From a virus, in IMG/VR virus record IMGVR_UViG_3300030419_008098, positions 32,745-96,744 of that record: a stretch of DNA of 64,000 bases, one strand, 5' to 3'. Position 1 is the stretch's first letter. The number at the start of each line of letters is the position of its first letter. Of this stretch, positions 17,379 through 60,015 are shown in pieces. The notes below the pieces were generated by a model. That model worked only from the letters and a program-made list of their open reading frames with translations. It made no database searches and had not been told where the DNA came from. The translations under genes and the position numbers were made by a program.

Positions 17379-18410
17379 CTACGAGAGAAGCGAGTAATCG
17401 TGCTGGTACATTTTTTTTACCAACCCTTTAAAGTCTGTATGACGCTCCCAACCAAGTTCTTTTTCCGCTAAAGAAGGATCCCCGCAAAGCTCATGCACCT
17501 CGGCGGGTCGATAGAATTTAGGGTTTATTTTAAAGATAAGTTGGCCTGACGGGGAGTGATAAAAACATTCATGCTCCTTATTTCCCCGGGAATAATATTC
17601 GATACCGGCTACAGCTAAAGATTCTTCGAGAAATTCTCTTACACTATGCATTTCCCCACTTGCTAAAACATAATTTTTAGGTTGATCTTGATTTAACATC
17701 AACCATACGCCACCCATAAAGTCTTCTGCGTCACTCCAATCACGTTGAGCCTCTAAATTTCCTAGTGACAAAACTGGGATTTCGGTAGAATTATTTAACG
17801 CAATCTTGATTTTAGCCACTCCATCACTAATCTTGCGGGTAACAAAATCTAAACCGCGCCGAGTACCTTCATGATTGAAAAGCCATCCCTGTACCGCATA
17901 AAGACCATAGGACTCCCTATAAACTCTAACTAAATGTCTAGCGGCACATTTCGCCGCACCATAAGGAGACTGGGGCAACAAGGGGTGCTCTTCGGATTGG
18001 GGCGAATGAATTACATCACCAAACTCCTCCGAAGACCCCGCATTATAAAAACGACAATCTGGAACAAAACGGCGTACAGATTCCAGAATATGTAAGACCG
18101 CATCAGCATCAGTGCCCCAGGTTTGAATGGGATATTTCCAGCTCCCCGCCACAAAAGACTGAGCTGCAAAGTTTATAAAGTAATCAGGCTCAATGTCAAT
18201 GATAACATCTCTGATGCTGTGAGCATCCATAAGATCCATATCAATCAATTCAAAACGTTCTTCATTTTCTAAGTGAAGGATGTTTTCATGGTTTTTAACG
18301 CTAAGCCTACGAATGGCTCCATAAATTTTATGAGAAGTCTTTTTGAGTAGGTAATCCACCATGTGGCTCCCATCCTGGCCGGTAACCCCGGTAATGATTA
18401 TTTTTTTCAT
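17379..18410 (-). CDS. gmd: GDP-mannose 4,6-dehydratase
   Basis: ITGVTGQDGS, AAQSFV, SSEEFG, SPYGAAK, LFNHEG, FVTRKI, RDW, FYRPAEV. Confidence 0.95.
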   Translation of the reverse strand: MKKIIITGVTGQDGSHMVDYLLKKTSHKIYGAIRRLSVKNHENILHLENEERFELIDMDLMDAHSIRDVIIDIEPDYFINFAAQSFVAGSWKYPIQTWGTDADAVLHILESVRRFVPDCRFYNAGSSEEFGDVIHSPQSEEHPLLPQSPYGAAKCAARHLVRVYRESYGLYAVQGWLFNHEGTRRGLDFVTRKISDGVAKIKIALNNSTEIPVLSLGNLEAQRDWSDAEDFMGGVWLMLNQDQPKNYVLASGEMHSVREFLEESLAVAGIEYYSRGNKEHECFYHSPSGQLIFKINPKFYRPAEVHELCGDPSLAEKELGWERHTDFKGLVKKMYQHDYSLLS

Positions 18411-18429
18411 ATTAAGATTCCTTATTTAT

Positions 18430-19407
18430 TTAAGCCTGCATTAGTATATCTAATGTAGACGAAATATCCACAATATAATTTTGGTCAAAAAGCGGATTCT
18501 CTTGAGCACGGCCACTTTTTCCTCCGGGATTAGGGTTATGCACTAAAGAAAAAGAAGGAAAGAAGTATTTAGAAAACAGTCTGTCGGTCCCCATTAAGCG
18601 AGGCCAAGAATTACGATAATCTACTTCGAGAATACAAATATTTTTATTCATTAATAAAAGATTGGTCATATTAGCCCCCGTGGGGGAGATGAAAATTTTA
18701 CAACTGTTCAGAAGTAGGGCTTGATCACGGAAACTTAAATTGGCTAAAGTGTCTACAATTTTTACGGAAAAGCCAATCTTTTTAATTTCCTCTGCGAGCT
18801 GCGCGGCATTTAAGATTATGCGAGAGCCCGCCTCTTCTCGGGTGTAGATAATTACATCTTCAGCCGGAGGGGGTGGTAGCTTTAGGGTTGTAGAAATTAA
18901 CTTATATAACAGATGCGCATCCCCGGGATATCGCAACAATCTATCTTCCCCTAAAATAATAAGTTCTTCAAAGAAATAAACTTTTTCGGTTTGATAAACC
19001 ACCTTAATGTTAAACTGAGACAGCGCGCATAAAAATAAAGAATTACACCAATAGTTGGAGCCAGTTTTAAATGTACCCACAGCATCCATATCGCTTAATT
19101 GAGGAAAGGCTGGGGTCTCCAGGGAGTCGCTTTTTACATTAATTAATAAAGTGTCAATCCCCGCACTATTCTCTCTCAAAAAATGAAAAAAATTCAAGAA
19201 AGTATCGTAAGTAAAATGAGCTATATTGTGAACATGTAGTTCATAGCGAAGAGTAGTTCCCTTAAGATGTATAAAGTTCTCAAAAGAAAGGGGTTTATGA
19301 AAATTATATAAGCGATTTTCAATGGAAGTAAAGTTTCCAAACAAATCAGTACCATTATATATTCCTTTATGGGAATTTTTTAAAAATACATTCCTAAAAG
19401 ATTTCAT
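18430..19407 (-). CDS. Glycosyltransferase, GT61/DUF563-like
   Basis: NIAHF, IYTR..RIILN, LSFRDQ, SPTGANMTNLLLM. Confidence 0.75.
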   Translation of the reverse strand: MKSFRNVFLKNSHKGIYNGTDLFGNFTSIENRLYNFHKPLSFENFIHLKGTTLRYELHVHNIAHFTYDTFLNFFHFLRENSAGIDTLLINVKSDSLETPAFPQLSDMDAVGTFKTGSNYWCNSLFLCALSQFNIKVVYQTEKVYFFEELIILGEDRLLRYPGDAHLLYKLISTTLKLPPPPAEDVIIYTREEAGSRIILNAAQLAEEIKKIGFSVKIVDTLANLSFRDQALLLNSCKIFISPTGANMTNLLLMNKNICILEVDYRNSWPRLMGTDRLFSKYFFPSFSLVHNPNPGGKSGRAQENPLFDQNYIVDISSTLDILMQA

Positions 19408-20498
19408 TACTTGTGAAGGGTTTGGTAAATTTTAAGAAGGAAGTACCGCGCCAAAGACGTACTGCTAAAATACTTGAGGGCTCGCTCACTCATTTTTTTA
19501 ATCCGAGTTTCAAATTCGGAAGGGTGGGAATATAAATACAAAGCTTTTTCTACGAGTTCTCTATAATCAGTGCACTCCGCAAAAGAGTCGCATTCTGATA
19601 AAGGATATTCAGAAATGTCTATAGGAGGCTTCGTGAATAAAAAATAACTACCACTTGATAGGGCCTCCCAGGGGCGCTTGGAATCCCAAAAAGGCCAATG
19701 GTCAATGCCCCCATATAAAATACATTTACAGTTTCCCAGGGCGCTTACATACGCGGGATTGGAGGCCCAGCGGTGGTAGGAATGTATGTTCTGATCTTTG
19801 GAGGCCATAGCTGAAATGGGAGAAGGGAACTTCGGGTCACCATAAACTTTACCATAAAAAGTATTTCCGGGAATCAACCCCCTCGCTACTAAAGCGTCCA
19901 CCTCATTCCGTTTTTGGCCGGGACCAGAAATGTGGGCAAAATCTATCTCTCTATCCTTAAAGGAGCGCGACTTGGGATTTTTATAAAAATCCGTAATTCC
20001 AAAAGGTAAATAAAAATTGGCCTCGTGGGAGGAGGTAAATTGCTTCTGAGAGGTGAAGAGAATATCAGGGGTATAGTTTCCTAAGGGAAGGGCCCACCGC
20101 TCTAAAAATACATCCTGGGTTAAGTCCGAGGGCACACATTTACCATGGTCATCTACAAAAGAGTTGGCTTTCTTAATCCATGTGTCGTTACCATTTACCA
20201 CATCACTTCCATCCACCATTATTTTAATAAGGTTAGAGGGAATTAAATCCCATCGGGTGCCCCACTGCTGCCCGCTTAAGCAAAAATCATAACCTTCACT
20301 AGCGGCAGAAATGAGGTTTTCACAAAACCAGGAATTTATGTTTGATTTGAAAACGTCAATTTGAAACCCTAACTTATATAAACCCTCTAAAATTGTAATG
20401 ACGGGAGCCTCGTAACTTTCGGAACCAACGAAAAGAATTTTTTTATTAAAGTTTTTTTCAATTCCCCGAGCTTCTTGAAAATATTTTTTAATAATCAT
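19407..20498 (-). CDS. Glycosyltransferase, GT-B (CgeB/Glyco_trans_1_2-like)
   Basis: YLPFG, REIDF, YVSALG, SKRPWEALSSG. Confidence 0.65.
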   Translation of the reverse strand: MIIKKYFQEARGIEKNFNKKILFVGSESYEAPVITILEGLYKLGFQIDVFKSNINSWFCENLISAASEGYDFCLSGQQWGTRWDLIPSNLIKIMVDGSDVVNGNDTWIKKANSFVDDHGKCVPSDLTQDVFLERWALPLGNYTPDILFTSQKQFTSSHEANFYLPFGITDFYKNPKSRSFKDREIDFAHISGPGQKRNEVDALVARGLIPGNTFYGKVYGDPKFPSPISAMASKDQNIHSYHRWASNPAYVSALGNCKCILYGGIDHWPFWDSKRPWEALSSGSYFLFTKPPIDISEYPLSECDSFAECTDYRELVEKALYLYSHPSEFETRIKKMSERALKYFSSTSLARYFLLKIYQTLHK

Positions 20499-20551: not shown

Positions 20552-21586
20552 ATGAAAGTGGTGATTGTCAAAGAGGCGTTAGATGAATTAGGGCCGTATT
20601 CATCTTTTGAATACAGGGGCATGTCATTTAAAAAATTATTAAATCAGTTTAAAACTAAAGCTAATGGGGTGCATACATTTTTAGCTTTTCAAGCCGATAG
20701 CATTATTCTTAACCAACCGCCTTCTCAAGGATATAAACAAAATATACCTCTAGAGCGTCAACAGAGGATTCTTTCCGCCACCACCAACACATACAATTTA
20801 AAAGACATATCGTGGGGAAGTTATGATGTGGTGTGGTGTCGCGATGCTATACTGGGGGAAATTGATACACTCAGAAAAAACTACCCTCAAACCTTATTTA
20901 TTTATGAAAATGTCGAACACGCGTTTGCGATAATGGATCCTCGGTATGACATAATTTTAAATCATGTGGATTTTTCATTTACCGGAAAACCCAACAAACA
21001 AGGTTTAACGCCCTTTCCTTATGTAATAAATCCTGCAATTTTAAGAAAAAATATAAACTGCAGCAAAAAAAGGGGGGTTTATCTAGATAGTAGAGACATC
21101 TACGAGTACGCCGAAGAAAAAAACATTAAAGATAAATACAAAAATCTCCAACAAAAATTTAAAACTTTTAATATAAACCTAAACTCTCTTATTCCAAGGC
21201 CAGAATTCTGTTATAGGGAGGTAAATGATATACAGTCCAATACCTATAATTATCTGAAGCGCGTAGGAGAAGCCGAATATTTTGCTTTATTAGCTGACCG
21301 AGAGGGGCAAGCATTGGTAGAAGCCGCCGCTCTAGGATGTATTGTAATTGGTAACGGGACGACGACACAATCGAAATTAATTTGCCATCCAGTATGTAGG
21401 GTGGAAAAATTTTTAGATGGGGGTCTTTTAAGGAATAAAATACTAGCCTTGCAAGAAAACGCCCCTCTTAAAAAAGAAATTTTAGAATACCAAAATACCG
21501 TTTTAGATAATTACTATTATAAATATCAAGAGCGCCTCATTCGCACCGCCCTTTATAATAAAAGAGGGTTAAGGGTTGCGTTTTAA
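20552..21586 (+). CDS. Glycosyltransferase-like protein (GT-B), paralog of 21569-22654
   Basis: GQALVEAAALGCIVI resembles the GT-B Ex7E region; YDVVWCRD shared with the paralog. Confidence 0.6.
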   Translation: MKVVIVKEALDELGPYSSFEYRGMSFKKLLNQFKTKANGVHTFLAFQADSIILNQPPSQGYKQNIPLERQQRILSATTNTYNLKDISWGSYDVVWCRDAILGEIDTLRKNYPQTLFIYENVEHAFAIMDPRYDIILNHVDFSFTGKPNKQGLTPFPYVINPAILRKNINCSKKRGVYLDSRDIYEYAEEKNIKDKYKNLQQKFKTFNINLNSLIPRPEFCYREVNDIQSNTYNYLKRVGEAEYFALLADREGQALVEAAALGCIVIGNGTTTQSKLICHPVCRVEKFLDGGLLRNKILALQENAPLKKEILEYQNTVLDNYYYKYQERLIRTALYNKRGLRVAF

Positions 21587-22654
21587 CTGAAGTGCTGTAG
21601 ATAAAATATTTTGTTGGTATTCTACAAAATAGGTTTGGAGTCTTTGATTTTGATAGAGTAGTATTTCTTCTTGAAGTTGGGGGTTTGATTCGAGCTTAAG
21701 TATGCGCTCTTCGACCTCCGAGTAGGGTTGAAAAGAAGAAAAAAGAGTAAAAGGATGGCATAGGAGATTGTGGTTGGGTGAACGAGTGGTACCAAAGCAA
21801 ATACAATTTAACCCTGCGGCATCCACTAAAGATTGACCTAACCTACCGCTAGTTGAGGAAAAATATTTACTTTCCGCCAGTAAAGATAAATATTGAAAGC
21901 TGTCGGACTCACCACTCGGAGATACGCATAATCCGTTAAGGGAATTCTTGAGATTACAGACTTTCTTAATGTTTCGATCCGCCTGGATGTGGTTTAATTT
22001 AGCCACCACCTTTATTTTGTCGGAGGAATAGCTAGGCGAAGAGGCACTCAACTCTGCCCCCAAAGCATAGTGCATCAGATCCCTATAGTCTATGTATAGC
22101 TGTATTTTTTTATCGCAAGAAAACTGCTTTCTCATTTTAGCTGGAGAACGCGGATAGGGAAATGGGATTTCCTTGTTTAATTCTTGGAGTAATATATCCC
22201 GGGGTGGGTGGTCGTGGCGCAAAATCAAATCATAAAAACGTGAATTGGTGGGACAGAACCCACGACTATGCTCAACTTCCTCATAAACAAAAAGAGTAGT
22301 GGGGTATTTAACCTTATGGGATTGAATGTTTTTTAAAATAGGGTCACGACACCATACTACATCATAATTTTCAAATGGAATCTCTTGCTCGGATTTTACA
22401 GTCCCTAAGGTGGCGTGATAAGTATTGGTATAATTATCTTCTAAAGTGTTGGCTTCAATAATGTCGCATTCATGCCGGGCAAAGTTGTAGCTGTCTAAAA
22501 TGTAATGGTCGGCTTCGAATAACAAAAAGGATTCTAAGCCATTAGTTTTGGTGTTATGGAGCTTTAGTAAATCTTGAAATTTTAAATCCCTATAGTTGAA
22601 AGAGGTGGTGGGACCCAGGACGTCATAATATTGTTTGATTATACAGACTTTCAT
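21569..22654 (-). CDS. Glycosyltransferase-like protein (GT-B), paralog of 20552-21586
   Basis: GQSLVDAAGLNCI, YDVVWCRD, LLCHP. Confidence 0.6.
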   Translation of the reverse strand: MKVCIIKQYYDVLGPTTSFNYRDLKFQDLLKLHNTKTNGLESFLLFEADHYILDSYNFARHECDIIEANTLEDNYTNTYHATLGTVKSEQEIPFENYDVVWCRDPILKNIQSHKVKYPTTLFVYEEVEHSRGFCPTNSRFYDLILRHDHPPRDILLQELNKEIPFPYPRSPAKMRKQFSCDKKIQLYIDYRDLMHYALGAELSASSPSYSSDKIKVVAKLNHIQADRNIKKVCNLKNSLNGLCVSPSGESDSFQYLSLLAESKYFSSTSGRLGQSLVDAAGLNCICFGTTRSPNHNLLCHPFTLFSSFQPYSEVEERILKLESNPQLQEEILLYQNQRLQTYFVEYQQNILSTALQLKRNP

Positions 22655-22704: not shown

Positions 22705-23805
22705 ATGGCGTGCAACAAGATTATTATAAATAACATGGCGGAGATTGATGCCTATTTGCAATCTCAAGACACTGAAAACTGTAATATCGCTAACTATGTA
22801 TGGTTGGAGTATGGTTTTTATCCTATATTCTTTAATGAATTGTTTTATGAATTTTTTAATAATTTGAAGGGGAAATATATTGGGTTATGTTTTGAGGGAC
22901 AAGAAATCTTATACGAAGACAAAGTAGATGACTTGTTGATTTTGAAAGATTTTATAGATACTCGCAAAACCTACCTAGATAATAAAGAAACTCCGCTACT
23001 AATTCAAAACTTTAATTCTATAAGCGATAGGGGTATTGCTTTTTGGTATACGTTGCGTAATTTCGATGAAAATGAATATGCTAATGTTGTATACAAATAT
23101 AAATATAAAAACATCCTACACCCTTTAGGTAAAGATGATCCCTGGAGGCTCGGGTTGTTTTCGTGTTTAAAATTTTGCTATGCCACCGGAGAGAAAGAGT
23201 TTTGGACAACTGAAGATACATTGTGGAAAACTTCGGGAACCCTGGGGTGGCGACTCGATAGATGGAGGCAAGATTATAAATTCCCAAATATTCTACCCTT
23301 TGACACCAACGAGTACTATGCCATTTTCGTAAAAAATACCTGGAAAACGCGCAACTTTAGATCGAACAATATTCAAGACATCCTCGTGGGAGACAGTGGG
23401 GCTGAGGGGCAAAGAGGGTTTGGTTTTGTGGATACGGGGTTTTATAAAAACCTAATAGAATATATTTTAAAAAACAATAAAAAATTAGTTATTATTAGCG
23501 ACCTAGTAAAATACCCCATACCCGTTCACCCTAATATAGAAGTTTTTGAGATGAAGGGCTTTTTTGATATAAAAAAATATTGCGCCGTGGTCCATAATAG
23601 TAAAGCGTTTCTAACCTCTTCTACCTCGCCATTAGATTTAGCGTCTTATTATTGTGATACTAATATAGTCTGCCTCGACGACCAGCAAAATAAATTTTCC
23701 TGGGTAGAGCAAATATTAAAAATCAAAAATAAAAAGGGGCTGGCCTTTGATATGCAGCATGATAGCTTCGGGAAACTCAAATCTTTCCTCGAAGAGTTAG
23801 GATAA
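22705..23805 (+). CDS. Hypothetical protein, possibly a glycan-modifying enzyme
   Basis: Long ORF inside the glycan island; weak GT9-like C-terminus (SKAFLTSSTSPLDLA). Confidence 0.45.
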   Translation: MACNKIIINNMAEIDAYLQSQDTENCNIANYVWLEYGFYPIFFNELFYEFFNNLKGKYIGLCFEGQEILYEDKVDDLLILKDFIDTRKTYLDNKETPLLIQNFNSISDRGIAFWYTLRNFDENEYANVVYKYKYKNILHPLGKDDPWRLGLFSCLKFCYATGEKEFWTTEDTLWKTSGTLGWRLDRWRQDYKFPNILPFDTNEYYAIFVKNTWKTRNFRSNNIQDILVGDSGAEGQRGFGFVDTGFYKNLIEYILKNNKKLVIISDLVKYPIPVHPNIEVFEMKGFFDIKKYCAVVHNSKAFLTSSTSPLDLASYYCDTNIVCLDDQQNKFSWVEQILKIKNKKGLAFDMQHDSFGKLKSFLEELG

Positions 23806-23806
23806 C

Positions 23807-24508
23807 TTAGAGCTCAGATATTACTCTCCCCTCTAAGGGCATCATAGGTATATCGGTAGGCTGACCCCAAAGCTGATGGTAGGGATAGGAAAATAAATCG
23901 GTAGAAGGTATCTTGTTTATATCGCAGCGCACAAAAGCCATGTTGACGTGATTTAGCCAGACTAAATCATAGCCTTTCAATGCTCCCAGCTCCAAGAAGG
24001 CTGGCGCAGAGGCGCCATAATAACGGATATTGTTGAGGTGGCGATAACCTGGCTCATATCGCATAACACAACTTTCGGAATGATTGGAATTGTATTCCAC
24101 TAAAACCACCTGTGGTTGATAGTTTAAATTTTTCCAAACCCACCAATCAATACTGTCGATGTCAATGGTGAAGAATTCAAAATCTTCTTTAATGTTATGA
24201 GCTTTTAGGTGAAAATTTACATTTGTAGAATCGTCCTCGCAGGTAACAAAAGAGTTAATGCAAATGGCATCGTGTCCAGCCAAATTTTGTTGGGACTCTT
24301 GAGATTTTTGAGAGTCTCCTTCTATGCAGAGGCCTCGCCAGCCTTTTTCTAGGAGCAATTTAGTATTACTAAGATAAACGCCATCCCACGCCCCCACATC
24401 AACAAAAACTCCTTTTTCTATCCCTTGACGCTCAAAAATCTCTTGTAATACTCCATCTTCATTATTTTGGCTATATTTAGACCAGGGATATTTTGTTAAA
24501 GAACTCAT
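23807..24508 (-). CDS. FkbM-like SAM-dependent methyltransferase
   Basis: YSQNNEDG, FVDVGAWDG..SN, GWRGLCIEGD, IDIDSIDW. Confidence 0.8.
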   Translation of the reverse strand: MSSLTKYPWSKYSQNNEDGVLQEIFERQGIEKGVFVDVGAWDGVYLSNTKLLLEKGWRGLCIEGDSQKSQESQQNLAGHDAICINSFVTCEDDSTNVNFHLKAHNIKEDFEFFTIDIDSIDWWVWKNLNYQPQVVLVEYNSNHSESCVMRYEPGYRHLNNIRYYGASAPAFLELGALKGYDLVWLNHVNMAFVRCDINKIPSTDLFSYPYHQLWGQPTDIPMMPLEGRVISEL

Positions 24509-25194
24509 TGTAATATATTGGCATAGGGAATATTATTCTCTAAATGAAAGAGGTCAGAGGGTTTTACCTTAAATTGGTTCATTAGAGCGGTGGGAACAAC
24601 GTATAGTTTTCCTACGCCTATACAATGAGGCCTAAGAGAAGGATGATAATTTTCGGCTGTATTTGAATAATAATAAACATAATCCCCCAGATTTTTCAGT
24701 GCATCCTTTACAAAACTTAGGTCACACGCTTGATCTTTGTATTTATCATATTGAAGGGGGCGGTGGGGGACATAAAAATCGTCAATTACAATAATCGCTT
24801 TATTTTTATAAACTTTTCCAATTTCCTGGAGTTCGGCATTAAGGGGCCAGTCATTTTCCCAATGGGCATCTAAAAAACATAAAATAAAATCGTGTTGTTC
24901 TTGGAGTAGGGGTAGTTGTTTGGATAAAAATTCTACCGAGTGGGATTTGGTAATTGAAATGTTAGCGGCACCAGCTTCTTTGAATTTCGCGGAGGAATAA
25001 GAAAACCATTCATCGGTGATTTCTACGGTGTGTACATTGGACGCGAAGGCAGAAAGCCATAAAGAAGTGTTTCCTGTATAAGTCCCGGTTTCAATACAAC
25101 AAGATACTTTAAATTTCTCTAATAAAAGTTTTACTTGTTTTTCTACCTGAAGGTCACAATTAAATGCTCCTCCCTGATCATTTGCGTGAAACAT
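24505..25194 (-). CDS. SAM-dependent methyltransferase
   Basis: IETGTYTG, TVEI, FLDAH, IVIDD. Confidence 0.8.
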   Translation of the reverse strand: MFHANDQGGAFNCDLQVEKQVKLLLEKFKVSCCIETGTYTGNTSLWLSAFASNVHTVEITDEWFSYSSAKFKEAGAANISITKSHSVEFLSKQLPLLQEQHDFILCFLDAHWENDWPLNAELQEIGKVYKNKAIIVIDDFYVPHRPLQYDKYKDQACDLSFVKDALKNLGDYVYYYSNTAENYHPSLRPHCIGVGKLYVVPTALMNQFKVKPSDLFHLENNIPYANILQ

Positions 25195-25199: not shown

Positions 25200-25973
25200 T
25201 TAGGAATTAGGGATTAAGCAAGTAGGTGGCGGAAGTAATTTATGTTTAGTATTAAGATGGCGAGCCGTATAAAGATCTAGGACTTCTTTTTGGCGTAGAG
25301 AGAGATTGGAGTAGTCTCCCTTGTGGATATCATAATAATTCAATGCCCACTCTAGTTCATCGTAAGAAGCGCCTATTTGGTCTTCGTCGGTCCTATTATC
25401 ATCCCATAGGCCATCAGTGGGGGGAGCAGCAAGAATATCTTCCAAAATATCCAATTCTTTTGCCAGCGAGTAAACTTGGTTTTTGGTTAAATCCGCAATA
25501 GGACTTAAGTCCACCCCCCCATCCCCATACTTGGTAAAAAAACCAATTCCATAATCTTCAACTTTATTTCCCGTACCTAAAACTAAATAGTTGTGGGTGT
25601 TGGCTATACTATAAATAGCGGTCATCCTTAAGCGCGAGGCGGTATTAGCTAAAGCTAATTTATTTACACAAGAAGGGAAGGCCTCCACTAACGAATTAAA
25701 AGAGTCTGTCAGATCAATCGTGTAAGGTTTAATGTTGTTGAATTTCTCTTCGAGCCAATCAATATGATCCAGGGATCGGCTGTGCTGCGAAGCCTCTTGA
25801 TTGATGGGTAAACTTAAGGGGATAACAGGTAGGTTGGTAAGAGCGCCTAAGGTGGAAGTTAGGGCAGAATCCACGCCTCCAGAAACCCCCACTACAAAGC
25901 CCTTGGAGCCGCTTTTATTAGCGTAATTAATTAGCCAGTCCGTAATATGTTTGGTGATTTCAGAATGATTCAT
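25200..25973 (-). CDS. nadE: NH3-dependent NAD+ synthetase
   Basis: GVSGGVDSA, N..SRLRM, GTGNKVE, FFTKYGDGG, PTDGLW..RTDEDQIG. Confidence 0.93.
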   Translation of the reverse strand: MNHSEITKHITDWLINYANKSGSKGFVVGVSGGVDSALTSTLGALTNLPVIPLSLPINQEASQHSRSLDHIDWLEEKFNNIKPYTIDLTDSFNSLVEAFPSCVNKLALANTASRLRMTAIYSIANTHNYLVLGTGNKVEDYGIGFFTKYGDGGVDLSPIADLTKNQVYSLAKELDILEDILAAPPTDGLWDDNRTDEDQIGASYDELEWALNYYDIHKGDYSNLSLRQKEVLDLYTARHLNTKHKLLPPPTCLIPNS

Positions 25974-50758: not shown

Positions 50759-50759
50759 T

Positions 50760-51581: not shown

Positions 51582-52669
51582 CGCATAAACATTACAAAAG
51601 CTTCCGTTGCACCTGCCGTAGAAGTTCCACCACCACAATCTACTTGGCAATAAGCGCCATCCGAACCGGTAATATAAACCTGCCCACTTACCCACAATTC
51701 TCCAGAGACCTCTACTTTATTTCCACTTACAGACAATAAGGTGTCCCCGGTTCCCACGCTCAATTCATCCTTAAAATATCCTGTATTTCCACTGACTGCC
51801 AGAAAAACCCCAGTGCCAGTAGTATTAAACTGTGTCCCTATTAAGACCAAGCCGGTCCCCGCCGTATAAGCAGTTCCTGCGTTGGTACCGGTAGCTACAG
51901 AAACCCCACTAATCGTCAATTCATCCGTGAACACTCCTTGAGTTCCTGTAATATTTTCAAAAAACGCCGAGCCCGAAGTATTAAACTCCGTTCCCACTAA
52001 AGCTAAACCAGTGCCCGCCGTATACGTGGTGCCGCCACCCCCACCTCCTCCTGCTCCTCCCGTAAGCTGCATAAAAGCGCCGTCATTTCCCGTAACAAAA
52101 GCCCTACGAAAATAAGCATCGCTCTGTCCCGACACGATACCGCTGGCATGAATGGTTTCTAAAACTTGAACACCCCCACTAACATTTAATTTTGCTTCGC
52201 TAAAATGATCAACATGCCCGGTTTTATTAAACCCTAAATTAACATTACCGTTATTACCTCCCGCAAGCCCGCTATAGTAGAGTGTGCCATTGCGAGCAAT
52301 CCAATAAGGAATAATTTGAGTAAGCGTCCCATCTTCCCCTGTACCATATATTCCCCCATCTACCCGTAAGTTTCCTCCGCTAATATGAACCATCGCTTGT
52401 GGGAAGCGGCCTGTAAAACCAGCCCCGGTTTCGAGAGGCAACCCAACCCCTAAGCTATTAAAATTACCTTTATTATATACCTGTAGCGGCCCTTCTATAT
52501 CTACCCCTGTTTTGAAAGTAGCCTTCCCTGTAAAGGTTTTTTCTCCGCTAAAAGTGGCATCCCCACTGATAAAATAATTAATATATTGCCCAGTGGCTAT
52601 AATTTGAGATTGTAAATTACTCAGATCCCCATCAAGGCCGTCAATCTGCTTTGTTTTAATTAAATTCAT
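51578..52669 (-). CDS. Tail-fibre-like virion protein
   Basis: Repeats YTAGTGL.L.GT.FNT.G (x2), poly-Gly linker, very S/T/G-rich. Confidence 0.75.
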   Translation of the reverse strand: MNLIKTKQIDGLDGDLSNLQSQIIATGQYINYFISGDATFSGEKTFTGKATFKTGVDIEGPLQVYNKGNFNSLGVGLPLETGAGFTGRFPQAMVHISGGNLRVDGGIYGTGEDGTLTQIIPYWIARNGTLYYSGLAGGNNGNVNLGFNKTGHVDHFSEAKLNVSGGVQVLETIHASGIVSGQSDAYFRRAFVTGNDGAFMQLTGGAGGGGGGGTTYTAGTGLALVGTEFNTSGSAFFENITGTQGVFTDELTISGVSVATGTNAGTAYTAGTGLVLIGTQFNTTGTGVFLAVSGNTGYFKDELSVGTGDTLLSVSGNKVEVSGELWVSGQVYITGSDGAYCQVDCGGGTSTAGATEAFVMFMR

Positions 52670-56373: not shown

Positions 56374-57135
56374 ATGCCGCGTCCTAAAAAAAATCCTACC
56401 GTTGAGATTAATAACTCAACGGGACCTTCAACCTTTCTCCGTGACGAGCATGGGTTGCTTCAAAACGTCCAATACACTTTTAATGAGGATGGCTCTGTTA
56501 ATTGGAGAGCTATGATTAAAAACGAACACCTCTTCCCTAACAGGGCTTGGTTTGAATCGCGAGGAAAGGACGTCCCTCACAGCACAGAAGGCCTTAAAGA
56601 CCACCAGCTTCTCATTAAATTAAGCGGAATCAAAGAATTGGCTCGTTTGCGTGGGTTTTCCTCTGTTTCTTTTAAGTCCGAGAAATGCGAAGAGCATCAC
56701 GTTGCCGTAAATTGCACCATGAATTTTATCCCTAATTATGAAACTTGTGGGGAAGAGGTTAGCTTTCAAGACATGGCAAACGCCACCTTGGAAAATACTA
56801 GTAGTTTCGCGACTAAGTTTTTAGAAACCATTGCTTGCAACCGCGCTTTTGTGCGTTGTGTTCGCAATTTCCTCAATGTCCACATTGTTGGTGATGACGA
56901 AATAGATAAATCCGACAAACCTCCAGCAGTGGGAAAAAAGCAAAACCTTAATTCTCTTTCTCCTTATGGTGTTTTGGAAAAACAATTCGGAACCTTTGAT
57001 GACTTCAAGGTTAAACTTCGCGAACTCTGGTCTACAAAACAATATAAAAACGATGCCGTTAAGCAATGGTCTGACTTTTCGGATATACCGGCTAAAGAAG
57101 CTCGTATCTTAATTGGGTTAATTAATTCAGAATAG
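56374..57135 (+). CDS. Conserved phage protein, possibly a single-strand annealing protein
   Basis: LLIKLSGIKELA..., ETIACNRAFVRCVRNFL resembles the Rad52/Erf 'A.xRA.xR' helix; weak. Confidence 0.4.
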   Translation: MPRPKKNPTVEINNSTGPSTFLRDEHGLLQNVQYTFNEDGSVNWRAMIKNEHLFPNRAWFESRGKDVPHSTEGLKDHQLLIKLSGIKELARLRGFSSVSFKSEKCEEHHVAVNCTMNFIPNYETCGEEVSFQDMANATLENTSSFATKFLETIACNRAFVRCVRNFLNVHIVGDDEIDKSDKPPAVGKKQNLNSLSPYGVLEKQFGTFDDFKVKLRELWSTKQYKNDAVKQWSDFSDIPAKEARILIGLINSE

Positions 57136-57455
57136 TGATGGCCTACGTCCTCCTGTCCTGCATAGGCCTGATGTGCATATTGCGCTATGGCTCCATTTTT
57201 AATTGGCCTCGAGATCTTCTGTCGTCCCGTAGTGAAATTTTTGAGGGTTTATTTGATTGTAGTTTATGCCTTGGGTTTTGGTGTGGAATTATAGTGGCGG
57301 GGATTATGTATTTTATAAAGTGGGACCTAAATTATTGTCTTTTACCTTTTGCCTCCGCAGCTATATGTTGGCTTTTCGATGCAATAATTAGAATTTTGCA
57401 GTTGGCCGAAACCTTTTTAAATAATAAAAAAATCCCCCCGAGACCTAGAAAATAA
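57135..57455 (+). CDS. CxxC membrane protein (DUF1360-like), paralog of 38196-38510
   Basis: IGLMCILRYGSI, LFDCSLCLGFW. Confidence 0.65.
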   Translation: MMAYVLLSCIGLMCILRYGSIFNWPRDLLSSRSEIFEGLFDCSLCLGFWCGIIVAGIMYFIKWDLNYCLLPFASAAICWLFDAIIRILQLAETFLNNKKIPPRPRK

Positions 57456-57521: not shown

Positions 57522-58361
57522 ATGTCCTTTCCCTCTTCGCCTTCCGAATGTTGCCCTACAGGGTCGGGGTGTATTACAGATTTTCTTTCTGGGGCTGGGG
57601 GAGTTAGTGGATTTAATTTTATTGTTCAAAATAGCCCCTTTCGCACCGGAACAACAGGGAGTGACAGTTGTTGCGACGTTTTATGTTCTGGATTTGAAAG
57701 AATAGATTACGTTAAAGACGGGAGTATTGCTTACGTTAGCATTTATGACGGGGCTGGAGGATATATAGAAAACGCTAGCGGCTCAAGTGGCATTACGTAC
57801 ACCCCTACCACCATGCGAGCTGCCCCCAATACCTGTTGCGAACAACCCCCTACCTTCAACCCGCTCCCTTGTGTCTGCACGGAAATGTATACTTGGTCCC
57901 TTACTTGTACCTATGAGGGAACCACCACACCCTCCCCCATGACTTATACGGCTACTTGCGCATGTTGTATTTCCGGATACAACAATAATTGCGCACCCTT
58001 CCTTTGGAATACTGATACTTGTAAGTTTACCGGACTTTTGTATGACAATGACGGTTATTCTATCTCCACTCTAGCAGGGAGTGGGGAAATATATTTTGAT
58101 CCCTGCAAAAACAAATGGGTGCTGTCTACCTCATGGCCAGGTAGTGCCAATCAATGGCCCGGCGGTGTTTCACTTTTTGCGGATGTTTTAACATGCACCG
58201 GTTTGGGGGAAGGGAGTTTTGAACAACCAGGAAACTTGCCTTACGGTGTTTTTCATGGGGAAGGGGGAGGACTTCCTAGCGGCACAATCTGCTACGAGAG
58301 AGCGGATTGCGGCGCCCCCCGTCCCCCAGATTTTCCAAGCACTTCCAAGGACTGTAGATAA
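57522..58361 (+). CDS. Cys-rich, S/T/G-rich protein (probable virion protein)
   Basis: 21 Cys in 279 aa by hand count, four CC doublets, no signal peptide. Confidence 0.6.
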   Translation: MSFPSSPSECCPTGSGCITDFLSGAGGVSGFNFIVQNSPFRTGTTGSDSCCDVLCSGFERIDYVKDGSIAYVSIYDGAGGYIENASGSSGITYTPTTMRAAPNTCCEQPPTFNPLPCVCTEMYTWSLTCTYEGTTTPSPMTYTATCACCISGYNNNCAPFLWNTDTCKFTGLLYDNDGYSISTLAGSGEIYFDPCKNKWVLSTSWPGSANQWPGGVSLFADVLTCTGLGEGSFEQPGNLPYGVFHGEGGGLPSGTICYERADCGAPRPPDFPSTSKDCR

Positions 58362-59144
58362 ATGTTAATCTACACTCCTATTGAGAAATGCAAAACCGTT
58401 ATTTGTAGTTCTCCCAAATGCGCTTGCCAAACTATTTCTCGGTTAACTTTAAGACTTTTTACCCACCCCTTTTTTAATACCTACCACTTGGGAGCGCCTT
58501 CCGCAAACCCCGACCACCTAAAAGCTCAACAAAAACAATTTACTACCGTCGTCGACCCCTCTTTTAAGAAAATTATTACAACCCGCCACCCCTTAAAACG
58601 GATTTTGAGTTGTTATAATTACATGATCTTAGGATTGCATTCTTATACGCAAGCGAAAAGTGGAGAAAAATGGTTTAAATCTCCTCTGGAAAAATTTACG
58701 GGGAGACCGTTATGTAGCACGACTTTTACGGAATTTATAGATTATATATTAAAAACCCCTGACAACTTACGAGATATTCATTTTTCTACTCAATCGTTTT
58801 TAGCAGAAGATATAAATTTCGATAAAATAATTAGGCTAGAAAACTTTATTGAAGACTTTGAAAATGCCATAACCGATTTAAAACTCCCAGTTGTTCTCCC
58901 AAAACAAATCCAAAGAAATAAAACTAATTACGCCCACTTTAATACCAGCGAACTTACTGAAGAAATTTTAGAAAAAATATATACTATTTACGAGCAAGAT
59001 TTTAAAAAATTCAACTATGCACCCATTAGCCTCCTAGAAATTAAAGAGTATATAAATTCTAAATCCATAGCGGGGCCCGTTCACCAAGGACGCTTAACCC
59101 ATAAATCCCGAGAGTTTAAAAATGAAGGTGTATTGTTTTTATAA
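58362..59144 (+). CDS. Sulfotransferase (Sulfotransfer_2)
   Basis: PKCACQT, RHPLKRILSCY, DIHF..Q, RLENF, IYEQDF. Confidence 0.82.
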   Translation: MLIYTPIEKCKTVICSSPKCACQTISRLTLRLFTHPFFNTYHLGAPSANPDHLKAQQKQFTTVVDPSFKKIITTRHPLKRILSCYNYMILGLHSYTQAKSGEKWFKSPLEKFTGRPLCSTTFTEFIDYILKTPDNLRDIHFSTQSFLAEDINFDKIIRLENFIEDFENAITDLKLPVVLPKQIQRNKTNYAHFNTSELTEEILEKIYTIYEQDFKKFNYAPISLLEIKEYINSKSIAGPVHQGRLTHKSREFKNEGVLFL

Positions 59145-60015
59145 TTCTCACTATGAAAAACTTTACCATCTCTTTAGGGATTCTTTATTAAGTTTAAAAG
59201 AGGGATTTGAGTTAAAGTCTCTCAAAACAGAAGAAGACTTTCCCTATTTAGACACGGGATATACCATGCAGCATGGTAAGTATAAAATCCAATTTATAAT
59301 TAACGCAATCAAGGAGAACCTAGGAGAGTCGATTGTATTTTGCGATGTAGATATTAAATTTTTTAACCCCTTTAAACTTTCACTTCAAAAAGTTTTAAAA
59401 AGGGTCGACGTAGCTTTTCAGGCCCAATATTCAGAACGACGCCCTAGGCGCCCCGGCTTGCCCCCTTTTGATCTTAACGGCGGTTTTATGGCTATTAACT
59501 GCAACCCCACCACTTTGGAGTTTTTTAAAAATGTACTTAAAGTAAATGACGCTAAAACCATTATAGAAAAAGCGTTATTTGTGAATTTACATTTAGTTAA
59601 ACACGAACTTCTCAGTATTAAATTTGCCAGCCTAACTAACGGAGGGGTAGGAGAGTACCACGATCAAATTTATCTCCTTCATGCCAATGTTCACGATGCC
59701 AGCCCTCGGTTAATTAAAAAAATGAATCGAGTAATGAAACGCACTAAAGAAAGCTTAAATGGCAATCGACCTCTCAGCGACAAACGAACTCAACGCCAAA
59801 TAGAACTACAAGGAAACAAAAAGGTGATTGAACAATTTGTAAAAAATGATTGTAAAAATTACAAAAACCAAGAGATAGGGGTGGATTGCGATGACTTCTG
59901 GGTAAAATACAACCAAGAACTCAACGGCCCCGGATGCCGAGGGTGCTTTCAGCGTAAAGTTATAAAAAAATATGCGGATTTAGCTCGCGCTTATTTACTT
60001 ACTCAAAAGGCTTAA
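59122..60015 (+). CDS. Nucleotide-diphospho-sugar transferase (GT77-like) with C-terminal 4-Cys domain
   Basis: DVD, NGGFM, LHAN; tail C-x11-C..GCRGC..KKY. Confidence 0.75.
   Translation: MKVYCFYNSHYEKLYHLFRDSLLSLKEGFELKSLKTEEDFPYLDTGYTMQHGKYKIQFIINAIKENLGESIVFCDVDIKFFNPFKLSLQKVLKRVDVAFQAQYSERRPRRPGLPPFDLNGGFMAINCNPTTLEFFKNVLKVNDAKTIIEKALFVNLHLVKHELLSIKFASLTNGGVGEYHDQIYLLHANVHDASPRLIKKMNRVMKRTKESLNGNRPLSDKRTQRQIELQGNKKVIEQFVKNDCKNYKNQEIGVDCDDFWVKYNQELNGPGCRGCFQRKVIKKYADLARAYLLTQKA

What the first reader, a model, noticed from the sequence alone, without database searches (positions are those of the whole stretch)
17379..60015. Very large phage glycan-building system: about 20 glycosyltransferases plus sulfo- and methyltransferases and sugar supply
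Seen: roughly 30 glycan-related genes in a genome whose replication genes, sigma factor and fibre genes are phage-like. They include donor synthesis (Gmd, GME-like epimerase, NDP-sugar 6-dehydrogenase, SDR-cupin-C-methyltransferase), GT2/4/9/11/47/61/77-like/GT-D enzymes, three Sulfotransfer_2 proteins and four methyltransferases. None has an evident signal peptide or TM anchor. I recognise no Wzx/Wzy, ABC transporter or lipid-carrier initiating transferase in the window. Established: GT47 exostosins, GT61, GT77 and Sulfotransfer_2 are best known from eukaryotic glycosaminoglycan and cell-wall synthesis. Inference: a soluble cytoplasmic pathway builds a complex sulfated, methylated, uronic-acid/deoxyhexose glycan directly on phage proteins, rather than converting host LPS.
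Basis: partly seen in the sequence, partly recalled or inferred. Interest (0 to 1): 0.88.

Follow-up and report, generated by a model that had tools for sequence, protein, structure and literature searches.

The report
Marine phage's variable sulfated-glycan gene islands
An uncultured marine tailed phage devotes about 28 kb to at least 28 soluble enzymes that make unusual sugars, join them, methylate and sulfate them. The kind of island is known from other large marine phages, but this one is unusually large, adds sulfation, and its target (virus particle or host surface) is still unknown.

Summary
Between 17379 and 60015, 28 genes have support as glycan enzymes: 4 sugar-nucleotide enzymes, 18 glycosyltransferases (13 well supported, 5 weaker), 3 Sulfotransfer_2 proteins and 3 methyltransferases. 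They cover 28.0 kb, which is 66% of the interval and 29% of the 96.7-kb contig. None has a membrane segment. The contig holds no initiating transferase, flippase, polymerase or PAPS genes.

It is a real phage, not a chimera. It is an IMG/VR record (CheckV 69% complete) from a lineage of at least 597 marine contigs. One relative carries a terminase and tail fibres. Depth is flat and an independent contig bridges the RNR-Gmd-GT junction.

The region is not one system but a mosaic. Conserved blocks (Gmd; dUTPase-sigma-SSB-GT; a four-gene GT-B module found in at least 106 contigs) alternate with three cassettes that are swapped even between strains 95-99% identical.

All four searchable relatives carry sulfotransferases, and one also has an APS kinase.

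The target is unresolved. I favour decoration of phage-made proteins (0.4) over remodelling of host envelope glycans (0.3).

The closest published analogues are pelagi-/cyanomyophage host-recognition clusters and P-SSM2 "LPS" clusters. This scan has already noted similar phage sulfo-glycan islands on other DNA (296 notes).

The parts
17379..18410 (-). GDP-mannose 4,6-dehydratase (Gmd). Lineage-conserved and sits next to RNR. The variable DNA starts just downstream of it.
   Evidence: PF16363 2e-103. 73-78% identical in G001/G002. 42 hits in helicase-flank loci. Strains X3/X5 diverge at about 18.4-18.5 kb.
18430..19407 (-). GT61-family glycosyltransferase (cassette A)
   Evidence: PF04577 7e-17
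19407..20498 (-). GT-B glycosyltransferase, Glyco_trans_1_2-like (weaker support)
   Evidence: ESM atlas features 0.97, structure TM 0.67-0.69 to PF13524 clusters. No Pfam or PHROG hit.
20552..21586 (+). GT-B (GT4-like) glycosyltransferase from an orphan family
   Evidence: Only 7 metagenomic homologs. AF2 pLDDT 83. Foldseek PDB hits TreT/MshA/BshA at 3e-7.
21569..22654 (-). Paralog of 20552-21586 (GT-B)
   Evidence: 34% identity, 4e-62
22705..23805 (+). Unassigned 366-aa ORF. A GT-B-like C-terminal motif is seen by eye only.
   Evidence: No Pfam, PHROG or PDB hit; sequence read
23807..24508 (-). Probable FkbM-like methyltransferase (indirect support)
   Evidence: phmmer 5e-7 to G002 ORF 76748-77512, which matches PF05050 at 5.6e-20
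24505..25194 (-). Class I SAM methyltransferase-like protein (weak)
   Evidence: Methyltransf_24/11/25 hits at 1.5e-4 to 2e-3, all below the cut-offs
25200..25973 (-). NH3-type NAD synthase (NadE). Not a glycan enzyme.
   Evidence: PF02540 8e-51. 46-58% identical to 146 of 151 Flavobacteriales genomes.
25978..27111 (-). UDP-glucose/GDP-mannose 6-dehydrogenase family, with a short C-terminal region
   Evidence: PF03721 + PF00984. PDB 3gg2 6e-39, AlgD 3.5e-33.
27084..27875 (-). Unassigned 263-aa ORF (GT-A-like by eye only)
   Evidence: No family hit
27868..28728 (-). GT11-like (fucosyltransferase-type) protein with an HLRGGD motif (weaker support)
   Evidence: Atlas score 0.98 to viral clusters; PF01531 is carried by 16-39% of members of neighbouring clusters
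28679..29653 (-). GDP-mannose 3,5-epimerase (GME), not Fcl
   Evidence: PDB 2c59 7.5e-92, against about 1e-21 for GDP-fucose synthase
29772..30407 (-). FkbM-family methyltransferase
   Evidence: PF05050 3.6e-7, above the cut-off
30397..31317 (-). GT-A, GT8-like glycosyltransferase from a family with no Pfam model
   Evidence: 103 homologs, none with a Pfam domain. AF2 pLDDT 92. Foldseek hits glycogenin/XXYLT1/YeGT at 3e-5. Viral GT-A matches.
31310..31969 (-). Nucleotide-diphospho-sugar transferase (GT77-like)
   Evidence: PF03407 7e-11
31966..32886 (-). GT47 exostosin-like / RXYLT1_C glycosyltransferase
   Evidence: PF03016 5e-22
32817..33653 (-). GT-D-like protein (weak)
   Evidence: PF22882 25.7 bits, cut-off 27. 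Homologs sit in 12 bacterial loci beside the 30397 family.
33646..34425 (-). GT2 glycosyltransferase (shared with G002 at 46%)
   Evidence: PF00535 5e-17
34513..36890 (+). Conserved non-glycan block: small ORF, dUTPase, dNMP kinase, sigma factor, SSB
   Evidence: PHROGs 135, 139, 351, 4932. Syntenic in G002 and in 7-18 further loci.
36925..38010 (+). Conserved GT-B glycosyltransferase (phrog_2170)
   Evidence: phrog_2170 4.6e-23. 49% identical in G002. 55-62% identical in 18 loci.
38196..38510 (+). Small 3-TM CxxC membrane protein, paralog of 57135-57455. Function unknown.
   Evidence: 49% identity; hydropathy; no GtrA match
39409..42003 (-). 864-aa fusion of SDR (RmlD/epimerase-like), a cupin-like middle domain and an NDP-hexose C-methyltransferase. 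Predicted to turn a 4-keto-6-deoxyhexose into a C-methyl branched deoxysugar.
   Evidence: PF01370, PF04321, PF08421, PF13489, PF08484. Cupin motifs by eye only, with no PDB hit.
42000..42839 (-). GT11-like protein with an invariant RRGD motif (weaker support)
   Evidence: 45 homologs. Invariant H19, R131-R132-G133. 4 of 27 homologs match PF01531 weakly. hhalign to 27868 gives probability 81%.
42814..43578 (-). Sulfotransfer_2 sulfotransferase
   Evidence: PF03567 2.8e-6, 28.1 bits, above the 22-bit cut-off
43571..44620 (-). GT61-family glycosyltransferase
   Evidence: PF04577 8e-15
44611..45483 (-). Unassigned 290-aa ORF
   Evidence: No hit
45480..46103 (-). Sulfotransfer_2 sulfotransferase with relatives in G001 and G002
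   Evidence: PF03567 7e-11
46153..47100 (-). GT9-like protein (weak)
   Evidence: PF01075 8.7e-4 in the own-genome search, below the cut-off
47093..48067 (-). GT47 exostosin-like glycosyltransferase, paralog of 31966-32886
   Evidence: PF03016 1.3e-12
48051..49965 (-). Two unassigned ORFs (172 and 477 aa)
   Evidence: No hits
50149..52669 (-). Fibre-like proteins leading the minus-strand run of cassette B: a phrog_1276 protein, a LamG/concanavalin-like protein and a Gly/Thr-rich repeat protein. These are possible glycan acceptors or receptor binders.
   Evidence: PF13385 7e-28. phrog_1276. S+T 18-21% and G up to 19%. No match in 50,697 phage records.
52705..57135 (+). Widely conserved four-gene module: a 198-aa unknown, a 639-aa GT-B (phrog_2170, weak DUF4214), a 387-aa GT9 and a 253-aa unknown
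   Evidence: 28-64% identical in G002. At least 106 contigs carry the 639-aa gene. All four genes co-occur in 75-80 of 80 loci. Absent from G001.
57135..57455 (+). Small 3-TM CxxC membrane protein (paralog of 38196-38510)
57522..58361 (+). Cys-rich (7.5%), S/T/G-rich 279-aa protein with no signal peptide. Possible virion protein or acceptor.
   Evidence: no family hit
58362..59144 (+). Sulfotransfer_2 sulfotransferase (the best-scoring of the three)
   Evidence: PF03567 1.5e-19. No match in GenBank phage records.
59122..60015 (+). GT77-like nucleotide-sugar transferase with a C-terminal Cys tail
   Evidence: PF03407 2.7e-5, 24.7 bits, above the 22-bit cut-off. Paralog of 31310-31969.
59999..63394 (-). 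1131-aa G/S/T-rich protein with about ten two-Cys repeats. Fibre-like, but it matches no known family.
   Evidence: A single distant homolog.

Best explanation
What it is. The interval holds a set of phage-borne cytoplasmic glycan assembly genes. A conserved backbone alternates with three strain-variable cassettes (18.4-34.4, 39.4-52.7 and 57.5-60.0 kb). The backbone is Gmd, one GT-B next to the sigma/SSB block, and a GT-B/GT9 four-gene module.

What is shown. The enzyme families, their solubility, the mosaic of conserved and variable blocks, and the recurrence of sulfotransferases across the lineage.

What is inferred about the chemistry.
- Host GDP-mannose is converted by Gmd to GDP-4-keto-6-deoxymannose.
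- The 864-aa SDR-cupin-C-methyltransferase then makes a C-methyl branched 6-deoxyhexose from it.
- GME makes GDP-L-galactose or GDP-L-gulose.
- The 6-dehydrogenase makes a uronic acid.
- About 18 soluble transferases assemble one or several complex, probably non-repeating oligosaccharides.
- FkbM-type methyltransferases and three PAPS-dependent sulfotransferases finish them. PAPS comes from the host, or from a phage APS kinase as in relative G002.

What is the most likely target, though untested. The acceptor is a phage-made protein, such as virion fibres, the capsid or the Cys-rich and G/S/T-rich proteins interleaved with the enzymes. This would give the particle a strain-specific, anionic glycan coat. 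It would be the phage counterpart of chlorovirus and mimivirus autonomous glycosylation and of mycobacteriophage virion glycosylation.
For: Enzyme assignments.

Solubility and missing membrane partners:
- All enzymes are soluble, and the contig has no multi-TM partner.
- PGT, GtrA and exporter-sized membrane proteins are absent from five lineage records.
- Bacterial homologs, in contrast, sit in loci where 30 of 72 have an ORF with at least 6 TM segments within 10 kb.

Too many transferases: 18 is far more than any O-unit or seroconversion module needs (own knowledge of O-antigen loci).

Conserved backbone: Gmd and a GT module are kept across divergent phages (42 Gmd hits; at least 106 contigs). 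A conserved, phage-encoded acceptor explains that most simply.

Gene neighbourhood: enzymes are interleaved with, and follow on the same strand, fibre-like low-charge G/S/T-rich proteins.

Strain-level swapping: cassette content is replaced right after Gmd in strains 95-99% identical.

Sulfation as a lineage trait: sulfotransferases occur in 4 of 4 relatives and in 0 of 14 control genomes. Relative G002 has an APS kinase.

Precedents:
- PBCV-1 encodes GMD plus virus-encoded transferases for its capsid glycans (PMC4691112).
- Megavirinae fibrils are glycosylated by virus-encoded clusters (PMC10117803).
- Mycobacteriophage capsid and tail-tube glycans, as cited in PMC12619734.
- Fold matches of 30397 and 27868 include giant-virus and cyanophage transferases.
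Against: - No virion protein of this phage is identified. The contig is about 69% complete and lacks capsid, portal and terminase genes.
- The 'fibre' proteins have no homology support.
- No acceptor motif was tested.
- Soluble transferases are equally typical of lipid-linked pathways.
- Bacterial homologs of these families lie in envelope-polysaccharide loci.
- The published reading of comparable islands is host O-chain modification (PMC7029224, PMC1079782).
- The near-complete relative G001 lacks the 'core' GT module.
- The islands sit among replication genes, not inside a head or tail operon.
Confidence: 0.4

Rival explanations
1. Host envelope remodelling. The soluble phage transferases extend host undecaprenyl-linked (or lipid A-core-linked) intermediates on the cytoplasmic face. 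Host flippases, ABC transporters and ligases then export the altered, sulfated and methylated glycan. This changes the infected cell's surface and would block superinfection, stop progeny being lost on debris, or alter grazing.
For: - This is the standard reading of the closest published islands: P-SSM2's 24 'LPS' genes (PMC1079782), S-SCSM2R (PMC12801897) and pelagimyophage HRCs (PMC7029224).
- The families GT2, GT4, GT8, GT9 and GT11 and FkbM methyltransferases are typical of LPS and O-antigen synthesis.
- Bacterial homologs lie in envelope-glycan loci alongside homologs of other island genes.
- Marine Verrucomicrobiota make sulfated exopolymers from clusters of GT, methyltransferase, sulfotransferase and gmd genes (PMC7356697).
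- Hypervariability matches the variability of host glycans.
Against: - Five lineage records hold no initiating transferase, GtrA, flippase, polymerase, ligase or transporter.
- 18 transferases would give a unit far larger than known O-units. A host Wzy or Wzx would have to accept it.
- A GT module conserved in at least 106 divergent phages needs a conserved host acceptor.
- No integrase or lysogeny module was noticed on the contig, although no integrase family was searched for.
Confidence: 0.3
2. Several targets at once. The conserved GT-B genes (36925; 53301/55208) serve one conserved purpose, such as a virion protein or a nucleic-acid or cell-wall target. The swappable cassettes act on the particular host strain's surface glycan or on variable fibres.
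For: - The architecture is mosaic, and the core and cassette genes have very different conservation.
- The core module sits beside the DnaE/ClpB and dNMP kinase/dUTPase blocks.
- The cassettes carry their own fibre-like genes.
Against: Nothing positive assigns any gene to any target. Gmd (core) supplies a precursor that only a cassette enzyme, the 864-aa fusion, is predicted to consume. That argues for one connected pathway.
Confidence: 0.15
3. DNA hypermodification. The transferases build glycans on modified bases of the phage DNA to evade restriction.
For: - Phage GT-B enzymes glycosylate hydroxymethylated bases. Diverse DNA glycans were reported by Pyle et al. 2024, which I know only from its citation in PMC12619734.
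- dUTPase, a dNMP kinase and a nucleoside deoxyribosyltransferase-like gene are present.
- Foldseek lists T4 alpha-glucosyltransferase among many GT-B matches.
Against: - No thymidylate-synthase-type hydroxymethylase occurs in five records, one of them 95% complete.
- Sulfation, C-methyl sugars and about 18 transferases go far beyond any known DNA glycan.
Confidence: 0.05
4. Artefact. A host LPS or capsule locus was mis-assembled into a phage contig.
For: The gene content looks bacterial. The contig is metagenomic and linear with no terminal repeat.
Against: - GC is uniform at 0.37-0.41.
- Phage genes are interleaved with the glycan genes and are syntenic with G002.
- Depth is flat at 12-13x.
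- An independently built 10,965-bp contig bridges 13391-24355 with 0 differences.
- Pieces 99-100% identical turn up in a second study.
- Relatives carry comparable islands.
Confidence: 0.01

Closest known systems
Host recognition cluster (HRC) of pelagimyophages and cyanomyophages (Zaragoza-Solas et al. 2020, PMC7029224)
   Same: A large hypervariable island in big marine phages (34-45 kb on average). It mixes fibre genes with many glycosyltransferases and sugar-nucleotide enzymes, and it under-recruits in metagenomes. Here the interval is about 43 kb and strain-level replacement is seen.
   Different: HRCs lie in the structural region of T4-like phages, between VrlC and gp14. This lineage has a DnaE-type polymerase, and its islands lie among replication and nucleotide genes. 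Sulfotransferases and the C-methyl sugar fusion are not reported for HRCs. The fibre identity is unproven here.
Cyanophage 'LPS' / cell-wall gene clusters (P-SSM2: 24 genes, PMC1079782; S-SCSM2R: 22 genes with 13 GTs, PMC12801897)
   Same: Lytic marine phages with tens of epimerase, dehydratase and transferase genes whose target is unknown. Fold relatives of 30397 include an S-SCSM1 transferase, and the GT47 protein matches S-SKS1.
   Different: This window has at least 18 transferases, against 13 claimed as possibly the highest number in a marine phage. It also has three sulfotransferases and a different phage lineage. The genome is smaller, so the share of coding capacity is far larger (29% of the contig).
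Autonomous glycosylation of giant viruses (PBCV-1 GMD/GMER + A064R etc.; Megavirinae fibril clusters; PMC4691112, PMC9614988, PMC10117803)
   Same: The virus encodes GDP-mannose 4,6-dehydratase. It has soluble transferases and methyltransferases that need no secretory pathway. A conserved core is combined with clade-specific transferases and rare bacterial-type sugars.
   Different: Those are eukaryotic NCLDVs whose glycans have been chemically proven on the capsid or fibrils. Here the virus is a tailed bacteriophage, nothing has been measured, and sulfation is added. PMC4691112 contains no mention of sulfate or sulfotransferase.
Mycobacteriophage virion glycosylation (Freeman et al. 2023; known here only through citations in PMC12619734 and PMC12801897, because the paper itself is not held)
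   Same: Phage-encoded transferases decorate the phage's own capsid and tail-tube proteins.
   Different: Those systems have one to a few transferases, no donor synthesis or sulfation, and actinobacterial hosts. No homology was tested here.
Bacterial sulfated exopolysaccharide / O-antigen loci (e.g. the Pontiella putative sulfated GAG-like cluster, PMC7356697)
   Same: The same mix of GT2/GT4-type transferases, methyltransferase, sulfotransferase and gmd. Bacterial homologs of island genes cluster together.
   Different: Bacterial loci include membrane initiation, flipping and export proteins. The phage island has none.

Membership tests
Phage hypervariable host-recognition / glycan island (HRC type) | A large non-syntenic island flanked by conserved modules, variable between close relatives | tested here: met
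   G002 and G001 share the flanks but few island genes. Strains X3 and X5 (95-99% identical) break off at about 18.4 kb. The core blocks are conserved in 18-80 loci and the cassettes are not.
Phage hypervariable host-recognition / glycan island (HRC type) | Contains tail-fibre genes | tested here: inconclusive
   LamG, Gly/Thr-repeat and 1131-aa repeat proteins look fibre-like. They match no annotated fibre.
Phage hypervariable host-recognition / glycan island (HRC type) | Located in the structural module of a T4-like myophage (between VrlC and gp14) | tested here: not met
   The flanks are RNR, DnaB, a DnaE-type polymerase, dUTPase, sigma factor and SSB. The contig has no T4-type structural genes.
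Complete bacterial Wzx/Wzy- or ABC-dependent polysaccharide locus | An initiating phosphoglycosyltransferase (Bac_transf or WecA type) | tested here: not met
   PF02397 gives no match in G000-G004 but rings in 11 of 14 control genomes. No multi-TM ORF is present.
Complete bacterial Wzx/Wzy- or ABC-dependent polysaccharide locus | Flippase, polymerase or transporter (proteins with 8-14 TM segments) | tested here: not met
   The hydropathy scan of all ORFs of at least 80 aa finds only one 5-segment protein, outside the island, and two 3-TM miniproteins. This was hydropathy only. No Wzx, Wzy or ABC HMMs were run.
Seroconverting gtrABC module | GtrA-type flippase | tested here: not met
   PF04138 gives no match in five records but rings in 13 of 14 controls.
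Virus-autonomous virion glycosylation (chlorovirus / mimivirus / mycobacteriophage type) | Virus-encoded sugar-nucleotide synthesis together with soluble transferases | tested here: met
   Gmd, GME, dehydrogenase and the fusion enzyme; 18 soluble transferases.
Virus-autonomous virion glycosylation (chlorovirus / mimivirus / mycobacteriophage type) | Glycan covalently attached to virion proteins | not testable with these tools
   This needs virions: glycoproteomics and sugar and sulfate analysis.
Phage DNA glycosylation (T4 AGT/BGT type) | A hydroxymethylase of the thymidylate-synthase family that makes the acceptor base | tested here: not met
   PF00303 gives no match in G000-G004 but rings in 10 of 14 controls. 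G000 is only 69% complete, whereas G001 is 95% complete.
PAPS-dependent carbohydrate sulfotransferases (Pfam Sulfotransfer_2) | A Pfam match above the gathering score | tested here: met
   28.1, 43.1 and 71.6 bits against a cut-off of 22. PAPS-binding residues and activity were not examined.
GDP-L-fucose pathway (Gmd + Fcl/GMER) | A GDP-4-keto-6-deoxymannose epimerase/reductase | tested here: not met
   The only candidate, 28679-29653, is a GME (7.5e-92) rather than Fcl (about 1e-21). No other candidate exists on the contig. The SDR part of the 864-aa fusion may act as the reductase for a C-methyl sugar instead.

The most novel reading that the evidence does not exclude
A widespread lineage of marine tailed phages builds, with its own genes, a strain-variable, sulfated and methylated heteroglycan coat on its virion. 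The coat would be rich in GDP-mannose-derived deoxy, C-methyl and L-sugars. This would be the first sulfated glycoconjugate made by a bacteriophage and a bacterial-virus counterpart of giant-virus glycan coats. A more speculative extension is that the coat mimics algal sulfated polysaccharides and so is captured by polysaccharide-foraging hosts (Flavobacteriia or Verrucomicrobiota).
Probability: 0.35. Interest if true: 0.85.

Novelty: new variant of a known kind. Interest (0 to 1): 0.58.

Why it matters
Large glycan gene islands in marine phages have been known since 2005, but what they glycosylate has never been determined.

This lineage is an extreme and tractable case:
- The backbone is conserved (Gmd plus a GT module in over 100 contigs).
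- The cassettes are swapped between near-identical strains.
- Sulfotransferases occur in every relative that could be searched.
- One relative has its own APS kinase.

If the product sits on the virion, phage particles in the sea would carry anionic, antigenically variable glycan coats. That would bear on adsorption, grazing, aggregation and the marine pool of sulfated carbohydrates.

If the product sits on the host, it would be lytic-phage seroconversion on an unprecedented scale.

Either way the island is a source of uncharacterised enzymes. These include a GT8-like family without a Pfam model, an orphan GT-B family, RRGD-motif GT11-like proteins and an SDR-cupin-C-methyltransferase fusion.

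Tried and rejected
Searches that gave nothing useful:
- PHROGs on 20 unassigned ORFs gave nothing of use.
- Single-sequence PDB searches of 19407, 20552 and 22705 gave only noise.
- Profile searches against PDB gave no credible hit for the 30397 family, the 42000 family or the 639-aa core GT.
- The middle domain of the fusion has no PDB hit.
- The Pfam GT11 model run over the genomes found no candidate. GT11 likeness therefore rests on the atlas, hhalign and weak hits in homologs.
- A peptide-pattern scan of IMG/VR with sulfotransferase 58362 found no relative, and tblastn against GenBank phages found none either.

Structural and neighbouring proteins:
- The 1131-aa and 363-aa fibre-like proteins have no phage match and one distant homolog.
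- A well conserved 764/436-aa gene pair lies next to the Gmd/sulfotransferase block of G001 and the APS kinase of G002. It could not be identified.

Regulation and expression:
- A shared late-promoter motif was sought in upstream regions. TATAATATA is enriched (6 matches against 1.5 expected), but mostly within one intergenic region, so there is no usable signal.
- No RNA holder was listed for the stretch.

Tools and hosts:
The 133,516-bp contig that carries an identical 30397 protein could therefore not be fetched.
- Complex prediction was not used, because there is no defined pair to test.
- Host assignment was not settled. See the NadE item under things noticed in passing.

Full report
**What the DNA is.** The window is the last 64 kb of a single 96,744-bp contig with GC 0.40 and no terminal repeat. 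The contig is an IMG/VR virus record that CheckV estimates at 69% complete.

Outside the flagged interval it encodes a set of divergent replication and accessory genes:
- DnaE-type polymerase, clamp loader, DnaB, primase and a RecA-like protein.
- RNR and a ClpB-like ATPase.
- Hsp20 and a tmRNA.
- Two sigma factors.
- A TnpB-type nuclease.

No capsid, portal or terminase gene lies on this piece.

The DnaB helicase has 50-60% identical relatives on at least 597 IMG/VR contigs, the longest of them 178-184 kb. Relative G001 (128.6 kb, 95% complete) carries a large terminase and a 1442-aa tail fibre. Relative G002 carries rIIA/rIIB. The lineage is therefore a tailed phage, and G000 is its non-structural half. 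Cultured phages are remote, with at most 33% identity to DnaB.

**Checking the observation.** Pfam and PHROGs support the following genes directly:
- Gmd
- two GT61
- two GT47
- two PF03407 (GT77-like)
- GT2
- GT9
- two phrog_2170 GT-B proteins
- three Sulfotransfer_2
- an FkbM methyltransferase
- an NDP-sugar 6-dehydrogenase
- an epimerase
- the 864-aa SDR + zinc-ribbon + C-methyltransferase fusion

The epimerase is a GDP-mannose 3,5-epimerase (2c59, 7.5e-92) and not Fcl.

Fifteen ORFs of 200-370 aa had no hit, so I tested the larger ones by other routes:
- 20552 and its paralog 21569 belong to an orphan family of seven metagenomic proteins. They fold as GT-B (pLDDT 83; Foldseek 3e-7 to TreT, MshA and BshA).
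- 30397 belongs to a family of over 100 proteins that has no Pfam model. It folds as a GT8-like GT-A (pLDDT 92; glycogenin, XXYLT1 and toxin-type transferases at about 3e-5).
- 19407 resembles Glyco_trans_1_2 clusters.
- 27868 and 42000 are GT11-like, with HLRGGD and an invariant RRGD motif.
- 46153 is weakly GT9-like.

The tally is 4 donor enzymes, 18 transferases (13 solid, 5 weaker), 3 sulfotransferases and 3 methyltransferases. That is 28 genes and 28.0 kb, or 66% of the interval and 29% of the contig. Four to six ORFs stay unassigned.

The claims of no TM anchor and no signal peptide also hold on a hydropathy scan.

**What is missing.**
- No ORF on the contig has four or more hydrophobic segments, apart from one protein outside the island.
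- Bac_transf and GtrA models find nothing in G000-G004, although they ring in most control genomes.
- The remaining 33 kb of the contig holds regulators, a GuaC/IMPDH-like enzyme and nucleases. It holds no sulfate-activation, fcl or export genes.
- An APS kinase is present in relative G002, which also has six sulfotransferase matches.

**Not an artefact.**
- GC is flat.
- Phage genes (dUTPase, dNMP kinase, sigma factor, SSB) sit inside the interval, in synteny with G002.
- In the probable source sample, depth is 12-13x across 12-32 kb. An independently built 10,965-bp contig spans RNR, Gmd and the first GTs with no differences.
- A second study holds pieces 99-100% identical across the same 20 kb.

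**Architecture: a mosaic, not one locus.**
- Gmd is 73-78% identical in G001 and G002 and recurs beside the replication genes in 42 fetched loci.
- The block 34.5-39.4 kb, which includes GT 36925, recurs in G002 and in up to 18 further loci.
- The four genes at 52705-57135 recur together in 75-80 of 80 loci, and the 639-aa gene is on at least 106 contigs. G001 lacks this module.
- Most genes of 18.4-34.4, 39.4-52.7 and 57.5-60.0 kb have no counterpart, or only a weak one, in relatives.
- In two 2025 seawater samples, strains 95-99% identical over RNR and Gmd diverge at about 18.4-18.5 kb. One of them rejoins near 29-32 kb.
- Relatives fill the same slots with other glycan genes. GT47 and GT61 occur only in G000 and G002, whereas sulfotransferases occur in all four relatives and in none of 14 control genomes.

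**Predicted chemistry (inference).** All three identifiable nucleotide-sugar routes start from GDP-mannose or a similar pool:
- Gmd gives the 4-keto-6-deoxy intermediate.
- The fusion enzyme combines a C-methyltransferase, cupin-like motifs and an RmlD-like reductase. It is suited to turn that intermediate into a C-methyl branched 6-deoxyhexose. From my own knowledge, this is comparable to the proposed virenose route of Coxiella.
- GME gives GDP-L-galactose or GDP-L-gulose.
- The dehydrogenase may give a uronic acid. Its C-terminal region is short, so its activity is uncertain.

L-fucose is not predicted from phage genes alone.

**The target.** No computation here decides it.

The points that favour phage-made acceptors are:
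- Membrane partners are completely absent across the lineage, whereas bacterial homologs sit in loci with such partners.
- There are too many transferases for a repeat unit.
- A backbone conserved across divergent phages is most easily explained by a conserved phage acceptor.
- The enzymes are interleaved with low-charge, G/S/T- or Cys-rich fibre-like proteins.
- There are proven precedents in chloroviruses, Megavirinae and mycobacteriophages.

The points against are:
- The fibre-like proteins are unannotatable.
- Soluble transferases are also normal for lipid-linked synthesis.
- The enzyme families and their bacterial neighbourhoods are envelope-type.
- The literature on the nearest analogues favours host O-chain modification.

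DNA glycosylation is unlikely, because no hydroxymethylase is found in five records. I put virion or phage-protein decoration at 0.40, host envelope remodelling at 0.30, split targets at 0.15 and DNA at 0.05.

**Comparison and novelty.** Hypervariable islands of 34-45 kb that mix fibres and glycosyltransferases are described for pelagi- and cyanomyophages (PMC7029224). P-SSM2 has 24 'LPS' genes (PMC1079782). S-SCSM2R's 13 GTs were called possibly the highest number in a marine phage (PMC12801897).

This window exceeds that count and sits in a different, DnaE-type lineage among replication genes. It also adds three sulfotransferases, and I found no paper on phage sulfotransferase islands. I therefore rate it a new variant of a known kind.

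The scan itself has already noted similar phage glycan and sulfation islands on other DNA: 296 notes in at least 271 genomes. Those notes are leads, not evidence.

**Host.** The island's NadE is 46-58% identical to 146 of 151 Flavobacteriales genomes and matches none of 151 Verrucomicrobiota at 1e-20. This is one gene and a weak hint, so the host stays open.

Noticed in passing
window 10103-10469 (-): ARAGORN calls a tmRNA gene with tag AATSVLLTQIG. Its 3' end gave the only nucleotide match to a cultured phage, 33 nt to an Alcaligenes phage.
   Followed up: no
G002:C1:60855-61103 (relative; ORF 60312-61133): An APS kinase (PF01583, 48.7 bits) occurs in the relative with six sulfotransferase matches. 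It lies next to a highly conserved 765/427-aa gene pair of unknown function. In G001 the same pair lies beside the Gmd/sulfotransferase block (73-84% identical between G001 and G002). The pair has no PHROG, PDB or phage-record match.
   Followed up: partly
window 25200-25973 (-): A short NH3-type NadE sits inside variable cassette A. It is 46-58% identical to 146 of 151 Flavobacteriales genomes and matches none of 151 Verrucomicrobiota at 1e-20.
   Followed up: partly
window 30397-31317 (-) and loci L105-L176: A GT8-like GT-A family with no Pfam model: over 100 homologs, with invariant H10, D116 and D118. It is spread over Cyanobacteria, Flavobacteriia, Verrucomicrobiota and Planctomycetota. 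It often lies next to homologs of the GT-D-like gene 32817.
   Followed up: partly
window 52705-57135 (+): A four-gene module (198-aa unknown, 639-aa GT-B with a CxxC insert, 387-aa GT9-like, 253-aa unknown) is conserved in at least 106 IMG/VR contigs. It usually lies next to the DnaE/ClpB block and is absent from the near-complete relative G001. Its function is unknown.
   Followed up: partly
window 38196-38510 (+) and 57135-57455 (+): Two paralogous 3-TM miniproteins (49% identical) carry a CSLC motif, and each follows a conserved GT gene. They do not match GtrA. They could be holin-like or redox proteins, or small lipid-carrier flippases.
   Followed up: partly
window 18400-18500 and 27558-30804: Contigs from two 2025 seawater samples are 95-99% identical upstream. 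They break away at about 18.4-18.5 kb, and one joins 27558 to 30804. These are strain-level cassette replacement points.
   Followed up: partly
window 25978-27111 (-): The NDP-sugar 6-dehydrogenase aligns to residues 3-374 of 450-aa homologs and has no PF03720 hit. Its C-terminal nucleotide-sugar-binding domain looks truncated.
   Followed up: no
G000:C1:22832-24351 (outside the window; L002:6835-8351): A GuaC/IMPDH-like enzyme (PF00478, 9e-53) lies next to a nucleoside 2-deoxyribosyltransferase-like protein. This may be purine or GTP supply, or nucleotide salvage.
   Followed up: no
protein P0008 (identical to window 30397-31317): The identical protein is recorded on a contig of 133,516 bp. 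That is probably a longer assembly of the same phage.
   Followed up: no
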